From Candidatus Woesearchaeota archaeon (GTDB taxonomy: Archaea > Nanobdellota > Nanobdellia > Woesearchaeales > WJIZ01), in the NCBI GenBank assembly GCA_018303125.1, contig JAGVYS010000005.1:1-46201 (forward strand): a stretch of 46,201 nucleotides of DNA, written 5' to 3'. Under the pieces are notes generated by a model. That model saw only the letters and a list, made by a program, of their open reading frames with translations, did not search any database and was not told the origin of the DNA. The position numbers and the translations under genes are program-made. Each line of letters starts with the position of its first letter. Position 1 is the stretch's first letter. Shown here piece by piece: positions 3,955-44,673 of this stretch.

Positions 3955-4743
3955 TTATTGCTTGCCTATTTCTATCCCTCCAGAGGGTAACAATCTTATT
4001 ATGTCGTCAAGATTCCCGCCAAGCTTTGCCTTTATTTTCTTTGCTATTTCAGAGGTCTTCTTATCTCCCTGTTTTAATATGATATACTCTTTGCAATGTT
4101 TTTTCATAGATTCTATTGGGGCAGCCATAATCTTTCCTGATTCCATCTTTCCTATAGCCAAATTAATCTTGTTATCAACATAGTTTGTCTTGCCCCTTAT
4201 CATGAAAGCTCCTTTTGTCAGGTACTCTCCTGCCTGGGCTTCTTTTGTGACCTGCTCTGGCTTGACCCAGAAAACAGGCGAGCTTGATTGCCCGAGCTTG
4301 AAAACCCTTGAGAAAGTTACTGTTGCGTCTGCCACCTCAGATATTGTGCTGCTTCCCGGTTCCTTTCCATCTGTTTTTACAACAAAGAAAGGGCTCCCTG
4401 CCATGTCAGTGTGGAAGATTATATCATCACTGCTGGTGTTTTTCTTTACTATTATCTCATTTGTTGCAGAATCCCTGCCGCCTATAACAAGGAAATCCTC
4501 AGATGTGAAGAACCACCTGAACTTTTCGTACCAATCCCTTTTTACAGGCGCTGTTTCCTTGTTTTTCTCGAAAGTCTCTTTTTCAGTAGCTTTCTTGCGC
4601 TCAAGCACCTCAAGTTTCCTCTGGTAAACATCAAGCGCTTCCCTTGCGCCTTCCATCTTCTTCTTCAGCTTTTTTGCCCTGTTGAAATATACCTCGGCAT
4701 TCTGCTCAACTGACTTGTCTATGAAAAGCTCAATTTCCGCCAT
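3955..4743 (-). CDS. NFACT-R RNA-binding domain protein (short Rqc2/RqcH-like)
   Basis: NAEVYFNRAKKLKKK coiled coil, WYEKFRWF, IGGRDSATNE, FHTDMAGSP and GEYLTKGAFMIRG. Confidence 0.85.
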   Translation of the reverse strand: MAEIELFIDKSVEQNAEVYFNRAKKLKKKMEGAREALDVYQRKLEVLERKKATEKETFEKNKETAPVKRDWYEKFRWFFTSEDFLVIGGRDSATNEIIVKKNTSSDDIIFHTDMAGSPFFVVKTDGKEPGSSTISEVADATVTFSRVFKLGQSSSPVFWVKPEQVTKEAQAGEYLTKGAFMIRGKTNYVDNKINLAIGKMESGKIMAAPIESMKKHCKEYIILKQGDKKTSEIAKKIKAKLGGNLDDIIRLLPSGGIEIGKQ

Positions 4744-41116: not shown

Positions 41117-42088
41117 ATGGTAATAGACAGTTCAAATATGAAAAAAGTTCTGCTTGATTTCCCAAAGCAATGCAGGGAAGCCCTCTCATTGTCAAGTGGG
41201 ATAAAGGCCCATGACAGCATCAAGAGCATACTTGTCATGGGTTTGGGTGGCTCTGGTATAGGCGGTGACATTCTGAAATCCATAATGTCCAAGACATCCA
41301 TACATGTTGATGTTGTCAAGGATTATGACATACCTAACTCTGTTGACGAAAATACCCTTGCCTTTGCAGTAAGTTATTCGGGAAACACAGAGGAAACTCT
41401 CAGTGCTGTTACAGAGGCAAAAAACAGGGGAGCAAAGATAATAGCTATAACATCTGGTGGAAAGCTCTCTGAAATTACCGATACTATAATCAGAGTCCCT
41501 ACAGGGCTCCAGCCAAGGAATGCGGTAGGGTACCTCTTTTTCCCTATGGTTGGTGTACTTTACAATTCAGGCATCCTGGATGTAAAGAACAGTGACATGA
41601 ACGAGATGGTAAAAGTTTTGTCAGATTCTGCATATTTCGACGAGAAAGGAAATGAAATCGCGAAAAAGATAAGGGACAAGACACCAATAATCTACAGCTC
41701 ATCTTTCTTTGGGCCTTGCGCGTACCGCTTTAAGTGCGAAATCAACGAGAATTCAAAACATCCTGCATACCACCATGTCTTTCCTGAACTGTGCCACAAC
41801 GAGCTTGTTGGATACAAGGGCATGGAGAAAAGCAGGTTCATTGTCATTCTAATGAAGAGCAACTCAGACCACGAAAGGATAAGGAAAAGGATGGACATAT
41901 GCAAAGAAATATTCGGGGAAAGACTGGAAGTGGAAGAGATAACTGCCCTTGGGACATCAATATACTCAAAGATTTTCTCGCTTATATATCTAGGTGACTG
42001 GGTCTCATACCATCTGGCACTGTTAAACAGGATAGACCCTACACCAGTAGAGGTAATTGAAGACCTTAAGAGAAAGCTTGTTGAGTAA
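41117..42088 (+). CDS. Bifunctional phosphoglucose/phosphomannose isomerase
   Basis: GLGGSGIGG, SYSGNTEET, QPRNA, RFKCEINENSK, PELCHNE and GDWVSYHLA..DPTPV. Confidence 0.93.
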   Translation: MVIDSSNMKKVLLDFPKQCREALSLSSGIKAHDSIKSILVMGLGGSGIGGDILKSIMSKTSIHVDVVKDYDIPNSVDENTLAFAVSYSGNTEETLSAVTEAKNRGAKIIAITSGGKLSEITDTIIRVPTGLQPRNAVGYLFFPMVGVLYNSGILDVKNSDMNEMVKVLSDSAYFDEKGNEIAKKIRDKTPIIYSSSFFGPCAYRFKCEINENSKHPAYHHVFPELCHNELVGYKGMEKSRFIVILMKSNSDHERIRKRMDICKEIFGERLEVEEITALGTSIYSKIFSLIYLGDWVSYHLALLNRIDPTPVEVIEDLKRKLVE

Positions 42089-42135
42089 AGCATTTTCTTT
42101 TGCGGCTACAATTTTTTGTAGCAATTAGGGAAATA

Positions 42136-42143
42136 TTTATATA
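42136..42143 (+). promoter_or_regulatory. Archaeal BRE/TATA promoter (GGGAAA..TTTATATA) for the downstream structured RNA
   Basis: TTTATATA preceded by a purine-rich BRE-like tract, about 30 nt before the RNA's closing stem. The nearest ORF start lies about 270 nt downstream. Confidence 0.6.
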
Positions 42144-42175
42144 GCTCAAATGCGAAAAAGAGCATAAACCAAAAA

Positions 42176-42402
42176 AAAAGGGATGGATAATTCGGTTACC
42201 CTGAAAAGGATGCGAATCATCTAAGCCTCTGTCATATGCCCGCAATTAATACGGAGTCTGGACTATAACTCTCCGTAAGAAACCAGCATTTGTCAAGCTT
42301 CGCCCGATGACGCGAGAAAGATAACCTTTAAAACAAATTGAGAGGTTAAGACTGAGTCGATAATTGTTTGAGGCACTCTCTCACCGAGTCCAGTTCCCTT
42401 TT
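42176..42402 (+). ncRNA. Unidentified structured ncRNA (~225 nt)
   Basis: Closing stem AAAAGGGA-TGGA / TCCA-GT-TCCCTTTT extended by TTCGGT/ACCGAG. CCT-GAAA-AGG GNRA hairpin, GCCTC/GAGGC, TACGGAG/CTCCGTA, TTCGC/GCGAG and TAACCTTT/AGAGGTTA helices. Possible pseudoknots. Confidence 0.65.
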
Positions 42403-42415
42403 GGGGTTTTCTTGT

Positions 42416-42544
42416 ATGGCAAAGAAAAAAAAGAAGGCAGCAAAAAGGCCCAAGAGCCTTAAAAGAAAAAAGAGCAGGAAAAGCAAGGAATCAAAGGTAA
42501 GAAAACTTATCGCTCTCGCCAAGAGAAGAAAGAAGAAAAGGTAA
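42416..42544 (+). CDS. 42-aa extremely basic micro-protein (MAKKKKKAAKRPKSLKRKKSRKSKESKVRKLIALAKRRKKKR)
   Basis: ATG with a GGGG SD-like element upstream. 25 of 42 residues are K/R. Below the ORF-track length cut-off. Confidence 0.6.
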   Translation: MAKKKKKAAKRPKSLKRKKSRKSKESKVRKLIALAKRRKKKR

Positions 42545-42603
42545 TTTTCTTCAATCTGCCTCAAAGTAGACATGTTTTTAAACGTAAAAAACTTCCGCTT
42601 GTA

Positions 42604-44673
42604 ATGCTCCTGAAAACTCTCAGGATGGAGAACATAAGAAGCTATGACAATGCATGCATAGACTTTCCTCAAGGTTCCATTCTCCTTGCAGGAGACATAG
42701 GCTCAGGCAAATCTACAATTCTTCATGCAATTGAATTCTCACTGTTCGGCCTGAAGCTGGGTGAGCTTTCAGGAAGTGACCTGCTCAGGCATGGAAAAAA
42801 TCATGGCTCTGTTGAGCTCTCACTTGAAGTTGACAAAAATGAGATTACAGTAAAGAGGACTCTAAGGAGGGTAAAGGATAAAATAGGACAAGGACCAGGA
42901 TATATTATCATCAATGGCACAAAGCAGGATTTAATGCCAAAAGAGATAAGGGCAAAAGTCTACGAGCTGCTTAATTATCCCTCTTCGCTTCTTTCAAAGA
43001 ACCATGACCTGATATACCGCTACACTATCTACACACCGCAGGAACACATGAAAAGGATAATATCTGAAAACAGGGAAATCAGGCTCGATACTCTAAGGAA
43101 AGTTTTCAGCATAGACAAGTACAAACGCATAAGGGAAAATGCCTCCCTCTATTCCAGGCAGCTCAGGGATTCAGCCAGCAGAATGGAAGGAATCATATCT
43201 GACTTGGACAAAAGAACAGGAGAAATGGCCGAGGCAGAGAAAAAGCTGAATTTGCTGTCAATAAAAAAGAATTCGATAAGCAGTGTAGTGGCAGAAAAGG
43301 CAATGGTAGTCTCTTCTGCCAGGGAAAGACTAGCCGTACATGAAGAATCCATAAGGCATCTGATGGAGTGCAAAAAAGAAATAGCTGTACTTGAAGCAGA
43401 GTTGTCCTCTCTTTTGAGAAAAAAGGAAGATTGCAATAAGGATTCGGTAAGGCTTGAAGCGCAAATATCTGCCCTAAGAGAAGAGCTGAAGAGCTATGAT
43501 GCCACATCAGTATCAGGAAATCTGAATGCCAAGGATATGGAAAAGCGCTCAATTGAGAGATTTATAGCCGAGCTCAGGGAGACAAAATCGCTGCTCCTGG
43601 GAAGGGTAGAACAGATTGGCGGACAGGCAAAGAAGGTCAAGGATATATCAGAGTGCCCACTATGCCTCCAAAGCGTCCCGCATGAACACAAAAGCAGCAT
43701 CATTGCTTCTGCAGAGGAATCAATCACAAGCATAAGGAAAGAAGTATCGCGCCTAGAACAGGAAGAGGGAACAGCAAAGGCTAGGCTAATCATAGCATCG
43801 GAGGAATACAGGATACTGTTGGAAAAGGATTCTATTGGCAGGGCACTGAAGATAAAAAAGCAGGTTGCTGATGAAAAGAAAGCTTCAATGAATAAGCTCC
43901 TCAAAGATTCAGAATCATGCGGCATAAGAATAGATGAGATAAGCAGAAAGAAAGTTGATTTATCTACCAGAATTGAAAACCTTTCCGGGGCAGAAAAGGA
44001 ATACCTATCTGAAAAATCATCTTTTAATTTCCTCCTCACTGAGGAAAAAAAGTTGGAAATATCTCTTGCAGAGTGCTCAAAGGAATTGGAAGGGGTATCC
44101 TCATACTATGAGGCGATCAATAAAGAGGTTGCAGAAAAGCAAATTATAAGGGAACAGTTAATTAGCATTGCATCTCTCCGCAATTTCCTTGAGACAGGAT
44201 TTTCTAAACTTGTAGATTCAATAGAAAAGCACGTTTTCATGGTCGCTTATAATGAATTCAATTTCTGCTTCCAGAATTGGTTCAGCCTGCTGCTGGAAGA
44301 CGGCAGCATAGCATCAAGGCTTGATGATTCTTTCTCTGTAATTATTGAGCAGAACGGCTACGATGCAAGCGTTGATGGGCTTTCCGGTGGAGAGAAAACA
44401 TGCGTTGCCCTTGCATACAGGCTATCGCTTAACAAGGCAATCAATGACATAATGTCGGGGATAAGGACAAAGGGGCTGATAATACTTGATGAACCAACAG
44501 AGGGCTTCTCTTCAGAGCAGCTTGACAGGGTCAGGAATGTCCTGAATGAGCTCAATATGAAGCAGACAATAATAGTGTCCCATGAGGAAAAGGTGGAAGG
44601 ATTTGTTGACTCTGTGATAAGGGTAAGGAGAGGTCCATCAGGTTGCAGCGAAATAGAAAGGAAAACAATTTAA
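42604..44673 (+). CDS. rad50: Rad50/SbcC-like SMC ATPase
   Basis: ENIRSY, Walker A GDIGSGKS, coiled coils with CPLC zinc hook, signature LSGGE, Walker B ILDEP and VSH. Confidence 0.85.
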   Translation: MLLKTLRMENIRSYDNACIDFPQGSILLAGDIGSGKSTILHAIEFSLFGLKLGELSGSDLLRHGKNHGSVELSLEVDKNEITVKRTLRRVKDKIGQGPGYIIINGTKQDLMPKEIRAKVYELLNYPSSLLSKNHDLIYRYTIYTPQEHMKRIISENREIRLDTLRKVFSIDKYKRIRENASLYSRQLRDSASRMEGIISDLDKRTGEMAEAEKKLNLLSIKKNSISSVVAEKAMVVSSARERLAVHEESIRHLMECKKEIAVLEAELSSLLRKKEDCNKDSVRLEAQISALREELKSYDATSVSGNLNAKDMEKRSIERFIAELRETKSLLLGRVEQIGGQAKKVKDISECPLCLQSVPHEHKSSIIASAEESITSIRKEVSRLEQEEGTAKARLIIASEEYRILLEKDSIGRALKIKKQVADEKKASMNKLLKDSESCGIRIDEISRKKVDLSTRIENLSGAEKEYLSEKSSFNFLLTEEKKLEISLAECSKELEGVSSYYEAINKEVAEKQIIREQLISIASLRNFLETGFSKLVDSIEKHVFMVAYNEFNFCFQNWFSLLLEDGSIASRLDDSFSVIIEQNGYDASVDGLSGGEKTCVALAYRLSLNKAINDIMSGIRTKGLIILDEPTEGFSSEQLDRVRNVLNELNMKQTIIVSHEEKVEGFVDSVIRVRRGPSGCSEIERKTI

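What the first reader, a model, noticed from the sequence alone, without database searches (positions are those of the whole stretch)
42136..42402. Unannotated ~225-nt multi-helix, pseudoknotted RNA with its own promoter
Seen, after a BRE/TATA (42136-43): the ends pair (42176-87 with 42389-402, extended by TTCGGT 42191-96 / ACCGAG 42383-88). Inside are a GAAA-tetraloop hairpin (42200-09), GCCTC 42225-29 / GAGGC 42370-74 and TACGGAG 42250-56 / CTCCGTA 42271-77, whose loop CTGG 42258-61 can pair with CCAG 42283-86 (H-type pseudoknot). Also TTCGC/GCGAG (42299-316) and TAACCTTT/AGAGGTTA (42322-48), whose loop AAACAA can pair with TTGTTT 42364-69. I see no SRP helix-8 motif, RNase P CR-I/CR-V, tRNA or riboswitch consensus. 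Inference: a stand-alone structured ncRNA of a new or highly diverged class (ribozyme-like, RNP scaffold, or an unrecognisable RNase P/SRP replacement) among housekeeping genes. This is the best candidate for an undescribed system in this window.
Basis: partly seen in the sequence, partly recalled or inferred. Interest (0 to 1): 0.85.

Follow-up and report, generated by a model that had tools for sequence, protein, structure and literature searches.

The report
New circular structured RNA in DPANN archaea
The flagged spacer encodes a real, highly conserved, knotted 203-base RNA that is cut out and closed into a ring, always sits just ahead of a tiny lysine-rich protein gene, matches no described RNA family, and has no known function yet.

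Summary
The candidate is real and new. Rfam 15 gives no hit. Canonical RNase P and SRP RNAs lie elsewhere in the genome, so it replaces neither.

**Circular form.** RNA libraries of three studies each hold a 233-letter contig, identical to the window, that joins 42393 back to 42191. A DNA run is collinear. The mature product is therefore a 203-nt circle.

**Biogenesis.** The junction fits cuts after the second base of two 3-nt bulges in a relaxed bulge-helix-bulge formed by leader and trailer. An EndA gene is present.

**Family.** A pattern scan found 72 loci, almost all in Woese-, Pace- and Nanoarchaeota MAGs. In 65 aligned members, 96.7% of pair cells are paired, against 31-46% when the 3' partners are slid. 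40 of 56 pairs show compensatory change, including a loop-to-3'-end pseudoknot.

Five of nine are supported. Four are not.

**Partner gene.** A 36-69 aa lysine-rich ORF of no known family follows about 72 of 75 copies.

**Distribution.** Patchy: 5 of 151 genomes in the order, 13 of 151 in the phylum.

**Function.** Unknown. The best guess is a stable RNA partner of the co-encoded protein.

The parts
42136..42143 (+). TATA box TTTATATA, preceded by the purine-rich stretch 42128-35. The transcription start is inferred near 42164-42168.
   Evidence: Sequence. It is conserved with G182. TATA-like boxes lie at fixed distances from P1 in 41 of 65 members.
42165..42190 (+). 5' leader (5' exon). It holds the 5' strands of outer helix h (42176-83) and central helix H (42185-88), and the first two bases of bulge 1. 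The start coordinate is inferred.
   Evidence: BHB geometry. No RNA contig in the three RNA runs extends left of 42191.
42176..42183 (+). Outer helix h, 5' strand AAAAGGGA. It pairs with 42395-42402.
   Evidence: The leader-trailer helix is present with different sequences in 38 of 65 members, for example GCUGACA/UGUCAGC and GCUGGCA/UGCCAGC.
42185..42194 (+). 5' side of the BHB core: helix H 5' strand GGAU 42185-88, and bulge 1 AAU 42189-91 with the inferred cut 42190|42191.
   Evidence: The joint 42393->42191 is seen in 3 RNA runs. The leader sequence GGAC/GGAU plus a 3-nt bulge is kept in 38 of 65 members.
42191..42393 (+). Mature 203-nt circular RNA.
   Evidence: 233-letter contigs with 0 differences in X10, X16 and X17 carry a 'goes back 203' joint. 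DNA run X3 is collinear over 42112-42574 without the joint. The + strand is fixed by many G-U pairs.
42192..42196 (+). P1 5' strand UCGGU. It pairs with 42383-42387 (ACCGA).
   Evidence: Pair 25/229 reads GC 52 and AU 13, with none unpaired.
42198..42211 (+). P2 hairpin with a GNRA (GAAA) tetraloop.
   Evidence: Pair 30/41 reads UA 50 and CG 14.
42212..42313 (+). Long arm P3 (42212-21/42306-13), P4 (42234-39/42286-91) and P5 (42250-56/42271-77), with conserved internal loops.
   Evidence: 8 of 8, 5 of 6 and 6 of 7 pairs show compensatory change.
42258..42263 (+). P5 loop CUGGAC, the 5' strand of the pseudoknot or kissing loop. It pairs with GUCCAG 42388-42393.
   Evidence: Pair 92/236 reads UA 44, AU 15, CG 5 and GC 1, with 0 unpaired. 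Five of 6 pairs are compensatory.
42314..42382 (+). Arm P7 (42314-20/42376-82), P8 (42325-35/42365-73) and P9 (42337-39/42359-61), with a conserved terminal loop containing AGGUUAAGA.
   Evidence: The divergent members L227-L229 keep P8 through compensatory changes.
42388..42402 (+). 3' side of the BHB: helix H 3' strand GUCC 42388-91, bulge 2 AGU 42392-94 with the inferred cut 42393|42394, and outer helix 3' strand UCCCUUUU 42395-402.
42416..42544 (+). 42-codon lysine-rich ORF (MAKKKKK...SKESKVRKLIALAKRRKKKR) plus its stop codon. It is co-transcribed.
   Evidence: ORF list. A homologous ORF follows 62 of 75 copies by a strict test and 10 more on inspection. Synonymous codon variety at conserved residues. 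No Pfam, NCBIfam or PDB match.
42545..42551 (+). T-run TTTTCTT, the likely archaeal terminator of the unit.
   Evidence: Sequence only. This is an inference.

Best explanation
This is one small transcription unit, in the order TATA box, short leader, 203-nt structured RNA, short trailer, 42-codon lysine-rich ORF, T-run.

**Biogenesis.**
- Leader and trailer pair into a relaxed bulge-helix-bulge.
- The tRNA-splicing endonuclease EndA cuts after A42190 and after G42393 (inferred).
- An RtcB-type ligase closes the excised piece into a 203-nt circle. The circle itself is shown; the enzyme is inferred.
- The ligase presumably also joins the two exons into a short-leader mRNA for the basic protein (inferred, not seen).

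**Fold of the circle.**
- Four helices meet at a junction: P1, a GNRA hairpin P2, and two long arms.
- The ligation junction lies in the 7-nt loop that caps P1.
- That loop (GUCCAG) base-pairs with the P5 loop (CUGGAC).

**Function.** The exonuclease-proof circle is the stable, abundant product. It most likely acts in trans as the RNA partner (scaffold, sponge or regulator) of its co-encoded basic protein, as a small RNP of still unknown cellular role.

Relatives without a leader keep the same fold as the 5' end of the mRNA.
For: **Circle.**
- Three RNA runs from three studies each hold a 233-letter, 0-difference contig with the joint 42393->42191.
- The DNA run lacks that joint.
- Contigs of relatives in the RNA runs also run from ...CCAGTTC into GGTTGCCCTGAAAAGG (loose ends).

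**BHB.**
- The motif has an 8-bp outer helix, a 4-bp central helix, two 3-nt bulges and the 5-bp P1.
- Cuts after the second bulge base give exactly the joint that was seen.
- The same geometry with covarying outer helices occurs in 38 of 65 members.

**Enzymes.**
- EndA is present as a 194-aa alpha-type ORF at 102 bits.
- RtcB is present in 20 of 20 relatives.
- DPANN alpha4 EndAs with an L3 loop are linked to disrupted tRNA genes (PMC5829648, passages read).

**Fold.**
- 96.7% of pair cells are paired, against 31-46% when slid.
- 40 of 56 pairs are compensatory.
- 0 of 500 shuffles reach the observed value.

**Promoter.** Fixed TATA distances.

**Partner protein.**
- The ORF follows about 72 of 75 copies.
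- It is under protein-level selection.

**Action in trans.**
- G182 holds a solo copy with its own TATA box and no basic ORF within the 260 nt checked.
- L221 has RNA-RNA-ORF in tandem.
Against: - Bulge 2 faces one unpaired base (U42184), so the motif is not a strict BHB. Only 3 of the 38 are strict at that point.
- RtcB was not found in this 94.67%-complete genome.
- The joint has a 3-letter ambiguity (TTC), so the cuts could lie up to 3 nt further 3'.
- No contig shows the joined exons.
- Contigs cannot show strand, ends or level.
- About 21 of 65 members have no leader-trailer helix and may never be circular. This fits a cis role at least as well as a trans role.
- Binding of the protein to the RNA is untested.
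- The patchy distribution (5 of 151 and 13 of 151; 0 of 6 in the own family) is odd for a core RNP.
Confidence: 0.6

Rival explanations
1. The RNA is a cis-acting 5'-leader element. It would be a ligand-sensing riboswitch-like aptamer, or an autoregulatory binding site for the basic protein, that controls translation of the lysine-rich ORF. Under this reading the circle is only a long-lived excised intron, comparable to the BHB intron in the 5' UTR of Haloferax HVO_1309.
For: - The RNA is always directly upstream of the ORF and shares its promoter.
- In leaderless members the transcript starts at P1 and the start codon lies 10-22 nt after the pseudoknot strand.
- The loops are as conserved as those of aptamers.
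- A BHB intron in a 5' UTR has a precedent (PMC7714728, passages read).
Against: - In the RNA runs the circle assembles as a closed cycle.
- A solo copy exists without the ORF nearby, and so does a tandem RNA-RNA-ORF arrangement.
- No riboswitch family matches.
Confidence: 0.25
2. The RNA is a self-processing ribozyme. The circle would be made by the RNA's own cleavage and ligation, or by a permuted-intron reaction, not by EndA and RtcB.
For: - The fold is complex and pseudoknotted, with invariant loops.
- RtcB was not found in this genome.
Against: - No hammerhead, twister, hairpin, HDV-like or group I match even at E up to 10.
- The junction sits exactly where canonical BHB cuts fall.
- Leaderless members keep the fold without the cut-site context.
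- RtcB is present in 20 of 20 relatives, so its absence here is probably a gap in the assembly.
Confidence: 0.05
3. The unit is a mobile or selfish RNA-ORF module (MITE-like, viroid-like or virus-derived) that spreads horizontally.
For: - Its distribution is patchy and sequence conservation is about 70-78% across families and orders.
- It is absent from the syntenic gap in 7 relatives: a lipoprotein-like gene fills the gap in four, and the gap is 0-80 nt in three.
- Some genomes hold 2-3 copies.
Against: - This genome holds a single copy.
- Two pattern scans of viral contigs gave 0 matches.
- Neighbouring genes are ordinary cellular genes, and no recurring integrase or transposase cluster appeared.
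- Occurrence is concentrated in particular families, for example f94 at 7 of 16, which fits descent with loss.
Confidence: 0.05
4. It is a chance set of helices in a promoter or 5'-UTR spacer, or a highly diverged RNase P or SRP RNA.
For: The single-sequence fold is weak, at z = -1.78.
Against: - Covariation is strong.
- It is expressed as a circle.
- More than 80 homologues were found.
- Canonical RNase P RNA (133 bits) and SRP RNA (109 bits) are present elsewhere in the genome.
Confidence: 0.01

Closest known systems
BHB intron in the 5' UTR of Haloferax volcanii HVO_1309 (PMC7714728; abstract and passages read)
   Same: A piece flanked by a bulge-helix-bulge is excised from the 5' UTR of a protein-coding transcript and recovered as a circle. 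EndA cuts it in vitro.
   Different: - That intron is 46 nt, has no reported conserved fold, and is confined to haloarchaea.
- This one is 203 nt, with nine covarying helices including a pseudoknot, its own conserved promoter architecture and an obligate tiny ORF.
- It occurs with and without the BHB.
Circular archaeal RNAs: 16S and 23S processing intermediates, tRNA introns, circular C/D box sRNAs, and circles of unknown function in Sulfolobus (PMC3326292; abstract and passages read)
   Same: The same kind of product, a covalently closed non-coding RNA in an archaeon. For rRNA and tRNA introns the route is also the same (BHB, EndA, ligase).
   Different: - There is no sequence or structure relation.
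- This is neither an rRNA nor a tRNA part.
- C/D boxes are not conserved in the family: GAUGA and CUGA in the window are UGUGG and ACGA in G182.
Large or complex bacterial structured RNAs of unknown function found by comparative genomics (OLE, raiA, ROOL, GOLLD). These names are recalled, not from a call.
   Same: They are orphan, highly conserved, multi-helix and pseudoknotted RNAs recognised by covariation, and they are abundant in transcriptomes. OLE also has dedicated protein partners (recalled).
   Different: - They are bacterial and linear.
- They have no co-transcribed mini-ORF.
- No Rfam model of them matches.
Type III toxin-antitoxin loci such as ToxIN (recalled)
   Same: An RNA gene directly precedes a protein gene in one unit, and a pseudoknotted processed RNA binds its protein partner.
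   Different: - Those RNAs are tandem 34-36-nt repeats cut by a toxin endoribonuclease of about 170 aa.
- Here there is a single 203-nt RNA and a 36-69 aa lysine-rich protein.
- PADLOC was not searched.

Membership tests
Any Rfam 15 family (4227 models) | A covariance-model match at or near the gathering score. | tested here: not met
   - Window at gathering threshold: only a tRNA-His far away.
- 42000-42650 at E up to 10: only noise, with 19.8 bits or less against cut-offs of 48 bits or more.
- Four other members' loci at E up to 0.01: 0 matches.
RNase P RNA (archaeal) | A match to RNaseP_arch with the conserved CR-I and CR-V core, and being the only such RNA in the genome. | tested here: not met
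   There is no match at the locus. A canonical RNaseP_arch lies at G000:C26:10751-11068 at 133.1 bits.
SRP RNA (archaeal) | A match to Archaea_SRP (helix 5/8). | tested here: not met
   There is no match at the locus. A canonical SRP RNA lies at G000:C53:21125-21421 at 109.3 bits.
Archaeal BHB (hBHBh') splicing substrate | Two 3-nt bulges on opposite strands, separated by a 4-bp helix. | tested here: inconclusive
   - Central helix GGAU/GUCC is 4 bp including one G-U. Bulge 1 is AAU (3 nt) and bulge 2 is AGU (3 nt).
- One extra unpaired base (U42184) faces bulge 2.
- In the family, bulge 1 is 3 nt in 38 of 38, while the bulge-2 side is strict in only 3 of 38. This is a relaxed form.
Archaeal BHB (hBHBh') splicing substrate | Flanking helices h and h'. 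| tested here: met
   The outer helix is 8 bp (42176-83/42395-402) and P1 is 5 bp. Both covary across members.
Archaeal BHB (hBHBh') splicing substrate | Cuts at symmetric positions in the bulges, after the second bulge base (position recalled and re-derived from tRNA 37/38 numbering), with the excised piece circularised. | tested here: met
   The joint 42393->42191 equals cuts AA|U and AG|U. It is seen in 3 RNA runs and not in the DNA run. A 3-letter ambiguity allows a shift of up to +3.
Archaeal BHB (hBHBh') splicing substrate | Cleavage by EndA and ligation by RtcB. | not testable with these tools
   An EndA gene is present. RtcB was not found in this genome but is present in 20 of 20 relatives.
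C/D box sRNA (K-turn RNP) | Conserved box C (RUGAUGA) and box D (CUGA). | tested here: not met
   GAUGA (42307-11) and CUGA (42352-55) occur in the window but are not kept in G182 or in the consensus.
Riboswitch or cis-regulatory leader | Ligand or protein binding that changes expression of the downstream ORF. | not testable with these tools
   The position upstream of the ORF fits. No known riboswitch model matches.
Small basic protein: any Pfam, NCBIfam or PDB family | A profile match. | tested here: not met
   - Pfam: only EAD7 at E = 0.27 and 11.5 bits, against a cut-off of 32.
- NCBIfam: none.
- PDB profile search: 0 matches at E up to 10.
- 62 database relatives, of which every one that carries a source name is 'hypothetical protein' and none has a Pfam domain.

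The most novel reading that the evidence does not exclude
The ring together with its lysine-rich mini-protein is a new class of cellular RNP specific to DPANN archaea. Its RNA would have a function of its own, catalytic, ribosome- or translation-associated, or delivered to the host cell with the help of a polycationic peptide. It would rank with orphan RNAs such as 6S or OLE, but as the first complex-folded non-coding RNA whose native state is a BHB-made circle.
Probability: 0.25. Interest if true: 0.9.

Novelty: new variant of a known kind. Interest (0 to 1): 0.8.

Why it matters
**A new RNA family with unusual features.**
- Archaeal circular RNAs known so far are processing intermediates, introns, small guide RNAs or RNAs of unclear status.
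- This one is a promoter-driven gene with a complex fold about as conserved as rRNA. It is found across several DPANN lineages.
- Its finished form is a circle made by the tRNA-splicing machinery, and it is locked to a tiny protein gene of no known family.

**Evidence for abundance.**
- The circle, and contigs of relatives recorded at a mean word depth above 800, assemble even from very small groundwater RNA data sets.
- Contig depth is only a rough guide to level.

**Practical value.**
- It gives a concrete, testable substrate for DPANN EndA with relaxed specificity.
- It adds a new RNA family to annotation.
- It may explain some assembly breaks in DPANN MAGs, because several copies lie at contig ends.
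- It is a lead on the biology of organisms that are barely cultivated.

Tried and rejected
**BLAST against relatives.** BLAST of the locus against 40 relatives gave only 15-50-nt matches. I fetched 20 of these places. nhmmer, blastn and a four-box test showed single short segments and no collinear homologue, so they were chance.

**Decayed gene.** I tested whether the spacer is a remnant of the roughly 230-aa lipoprotein-like gene that fills the same gap in four relatives. tblastn gave nothing below E = 0.9.

**MITE with terminal inverted repeats.** Rejected, because the genome holds a single copy.

**C/D K-turn.** The boxes are not conserved.

**Strict two-box pattern in the order.** It found only 2 of 401 genomes, own included. 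It was too strict but yielded the first homologue, in G182.

**Conserved neighbour genes.**
- Clustering of ORFs within 4.2 kb in 74 loci gave no universal neighbour.
- The largest cluster was a mix of GTPases at varying positions.
- A Dph2-like gene (name recalled) and a membrane-protein gene were shared by only 5-7 related loci.

**Extra tertiary pairs.** An all-against-all covariance scan found nothing above the phylogenetic background.

**Viral origin.** Two pattern scans of viral contigs returned 0 matches.

**Metagenome loci.** The loci fetched with the isomerase protein held no copy by the box test. That test was strict.

**RNA-run cover.** There was no cover outside 42179-42426, including the ORF and any joined exons. 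Contigs drop rare forms, so this is not evidence that the mRNA is absent.

**Habitat.** I draw no habitat conclusion from the run labels.

**Literature.**
- Searches found no paper on this RNA or protein.
- Supplements were closed and not seen.
- The viroid-like circular RNA survey (10.1101/2022.07.19.500677, passages only) may list such circles in tables I could not see.

Full report
**Locus.**
- The window is contig C49 of a 1.35-Mb, 94.67%-complete archaeal genome.
- The candidate lies in a 515-nt gap. On one side is an SIS-type sugar isomerase gene (41117-42088, +). On the other is a Rad50-like ATPase gene (42604-44673, +), which has its own TATA-like stretch about 25 nt before its start codon.
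- The gap also holds a 42-codon lysine-rich ORF (42416-42544).

**Known families.**
- Rfam 15 finds nothing here. This holds at gathering scores, at E up to 10 on 42000-42650, and for four other members' loci at E up to 0.01.
- ARAGORN finds only a distant tRNA-His.
- Canonical RNase P RNA (133.1 bits) and SRP RNA (109.3 bits) lie on other contigs. The idea of a replacement for them is therefore refuted.

**Single sequence.** The predicted fold is only weakly better than shuffles, at z = -1.78 on the + strand and -2.50 on the - strand. G+C content equals that of the flanking genes. The window alone would not have proved anything.

**Expression and topology.**
- Of 20 runs that hold words of the locus, eight RNA libraries hold a constant quarter of them.
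- I laid three RNA runs from three studies and one DNA run.
- Each RNA run has one 233-letter contig with 0 differences that is a circular permutation of 42191-42393. The tool reports a joint from 42393 back to 42191 ('goes back 203'), with 3 ambiguous letters (TTC).
- The DNA run has a collinear contig over 42112-42574 and no such joint.
- Contigs of diverged relatives occur in all four runs, some at a recorded depth above 800. In the RNA runs they continue from ...CCAGTTC into GGTTGCCCTGAAAAGG, which is the start of the RNA, so the relatives are circular too.
- Contigs cannot give strand or level. The strand is fixed as + by many G-U pairs in the covariation table.

**How the circle is made.**
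- Leader and trailer form an 8-bp outer helix (42176-83/42395-402) and a 4-bp helix GGAU/GUCC (42185-88/42388-91). Two 3-nt bulges follow (AAU 42189-91 and AGU 42392-94), then P1.
- Canonical archaeal cleavage falls after the second bulge base. I recalled this position and re-derived it from the tRNA 37/38 case. It gives exactly 42190|42191 and 42393|42394, which is the joint observed.
- The motif is relaxed, because U42184 faces bulge 2.
- The same arrangement, with different and complementary outer helices, occurs in 38 of 65 members. About six others have an outer helix abutting P1, and about 21 have none.
- The genome encodes an alpha-type EndA of 194 aa.
- DPANN alpha4 enzymes with the L3 loop have been linked to disrupted tRNA genes (PMC5829648, passages read).
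- RtcB was not found in this genome but is present in 20 of 20 relatives, so its absence here is probably an assembly gap.

**Homologues.**
- BLAST in 40 relatives gave only chance fragments.
- Consensus boxes read from the loose ends led to one homologue, in G182, a different family of the same order.
- An exact 22-base pattern then found 72 loci among the species-representative genomes.

| Label on the record | Loci |
|---|---|
| Woesearchaeota | 26 |
| Nanoarchaeota / Nanoarchaeia | 22 |
| Pacearchaeota | 13 |
| Unclassified archaeon | 5 |
| Iainarchaeum | 2 |
| Micrarchaeota | 1 |
| Bacterial (Patescibacteria, Paceibacterota) | 2 |
| Methanosarcinales | 1 |

- Two of the three labels that do not fit (Patescibacteria and Methanosarcinales) sit on contigs under 1.6 kb. 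The third, Paceibacterota, is on a 389-kb contig. All three are probably mislabelled or misbinned.
- Seven copies are cut by contig ends.
- A covariance model of the 3' 143 positions gave the prevalence below.

| Genomes searched with the model | Genomes with a match |
|---|---|
| Order sample (own included) | 5 of 151 |
| Own family, excluding own | 0 of 6 |
| Phylum sample (own included) | 13 of 151 |
| Family f94 within the phylum sample | 7 of 16 |
| Family f85 within the phylum sample | 2 of 2 |

- Only 21 first-look candidates per genome were scored in the large runs, so weak copies may be missed.

**Structure.**
- In 65 full-length members (alignment A2), RNAalifold predicts 51 pairs, of which 35 show compensatory change.
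- With the pseudoknot added, 96.7% of 3614 cells are paired, against 31-46% when the 3' partners are slid by 1-3 columns. 40 of 56 pairs have changes on both sides, and no shuffle out of 500 reaches any of the five measures.
- The fold is a four-way junction with almost no linker bases. Its four helices are P1, the GNRA hairpin P2, an arm P3-P4-P5 with two conserved internal loops, and an arm P7-P8-P9 with a conserved loop of about 20 nt.
- The P5 loop CUGGAC pairs with GUCCAG at the 3' end. Pair 92/236 reads UA 44, AU 15, CG 5 and GC 1, with none unpaired.
- In the circle, GUCCAG lies in the 7-nt loop that caps P1 and contains the ligation junction. The interaction is therefore a loop-loop kiss.
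- Divergent members found by the model keep the nested P8 through compensatory changes, but cannot form the local TAACCTTT/AGAGGTTA hairpin.

**Promoter.**
- TATA-like boxes end 35-48 nt before P1 in 23 of the 25 leader-bearing members that have a box (43 such members in all).
- They end exactly 22 nt before P1 in 7 of the 16 leaderless members that have a box. Leaderless transcripts therefore begin at about P1.
- A further motif, RGTRRT, lies 55-64 nt before P1. Counted over a 30-75-nt window, 31 of 65 members carry it, against 6.9 +/- 2.3 in shuffles.

**The ORF.**
- A very basic ORF of 36-69 aa carries the motif GRxxSxKSKxSKVKKLIKLAK.
- It follows 62 of 75 copies by a strict test. Ten more are found with other start codons or further downstream.
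- Of the remaining three copies, one is followed by a second RNA copy and then the ORF, one is cut by a contig end, and one (L182) shows none within 330 nt.
- Conserved Ser, Val and Leu positions use four to six different codons each, so the gene is under selection at the protein level.
- It has no Pfam, NCBIfam or PDB relative. Of its 62 database relatives, every one that carries a source name is 'hypothetical protein'.

**Context and origin.**
- In four relatives of the same family the isomerase/Rad50 gap holds a lipoprotein-like gene instead. In three others the gap is 0-80 nt.
- No trace of that gene remains here.
- No neighbour other than the ORF is shared across the family.
- No copy was found in viral contigs with two patterns.
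- The unit has therefore been gained, lost or moved often, but nothing marks it as a classic mobile element.

**Reading.**
- Shown: a conserved fold, a dedicated promoter, a circular product and a linked protein gene.
- Inferred: EndA and RtcB as the enzymes, ligation of the exons, and a trans-acting RNP role.
- The main rival is a cis-regulatory leader whose excised form merely persists. Leaderless members and the closeness of the start codon favour the cis reading. A solo copy, a tandem pair and the dominance of the circle in the RNA runs favour the trans reading.
- Searches of the held literature found no description of this RNA. Supplements could not be seen.
- The nearest precedents are the 46-nt BHB intron in the 5' UTR of HVO_1309 (PMC7714728) and the circular non-coding RNAs of Sulfolobus (PMC3326292).

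Noticed in passing
about 55-64 nt upstream of P1 in family members (for example L208, L219, L207, L171): A conserved motif RGTRRT, often AAAGTGGTAAGATA-like, lies roughly 10-15 nt upstream of the TATA box. Counted over a window 30-75 nt before P1, 31 of 65 members carry it against 6.9 +/- 2.3 in shuffles. It may be a transcription-factor site. The window's own copy does not match the strict pattern.
   Followed up: partly
window 42089-42604 compared with L024-L027 (G004, G006, G001, G003): In four relatives of the same family a cysteine-rich, lipoprotein-like gene of about 220-245 aa, overlapping the isomerase stop codon, fills the isomerase/Rad50 gap. In G002, G023 and G034 the gap is 0-80 nt. 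A distant paralogue lies at G000:C22:37401-37844.
   Followed up: partly
G000, whole genome: RtcB (PF01139) gives no match in this 94.67%-complete genome, although 20 of 20 relatives have it. This is probably an assembly gap.
   Followed up: partly
G002:C105, G005:C77, G017:C5: In three relatives, RtcB matches are split across open frames of about 1000 aa. This looks like intein-bearing RtcB genes.
   Followed up: no
L155, L158, L164, L177, L178, L181, L199: Seven of 75 RNA copies are truncated by a contig end, and many database relatives of the mini-protein sit on contigs of 0.5-3 kb. The conserved RNA may break metagenome assemblies much as rRNA genes do.
   Followed up: no
L221:2824-3298 and G182:C67:1775-1915 / 4549-4693: One genome has two RNA copies in tandem followed by a single basic ORF. 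G182 has a second, more diverged copy (82.5 bits) 2.8 kb upstream with its own TATA box, and the 260 nt checked downstream hold no basic ORF.
   Followed up: partly
L182 and L194, downstream of the RNA: In two loci, small hydrophobic membrane-peptide-like ORFs of 30-53 aa directly follow the RNA. In L194 the basic ORF comes about 280 nt later.
   Followed up: no
L206 / L226 (the same sequence found twice): This member carries an internal direct duplication of about 19 nt (ACGAAACCTACACTTGTTA twice) in the 3' strand of P4.
   Followed up: no
window 42095-42118: The inverted repeat GCTACAA-TTTTT-TGTAGC lies right after the isomerase stop codon. It is a likely terminator hairpin or T-run of the upstream gene.
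   Followed up: no
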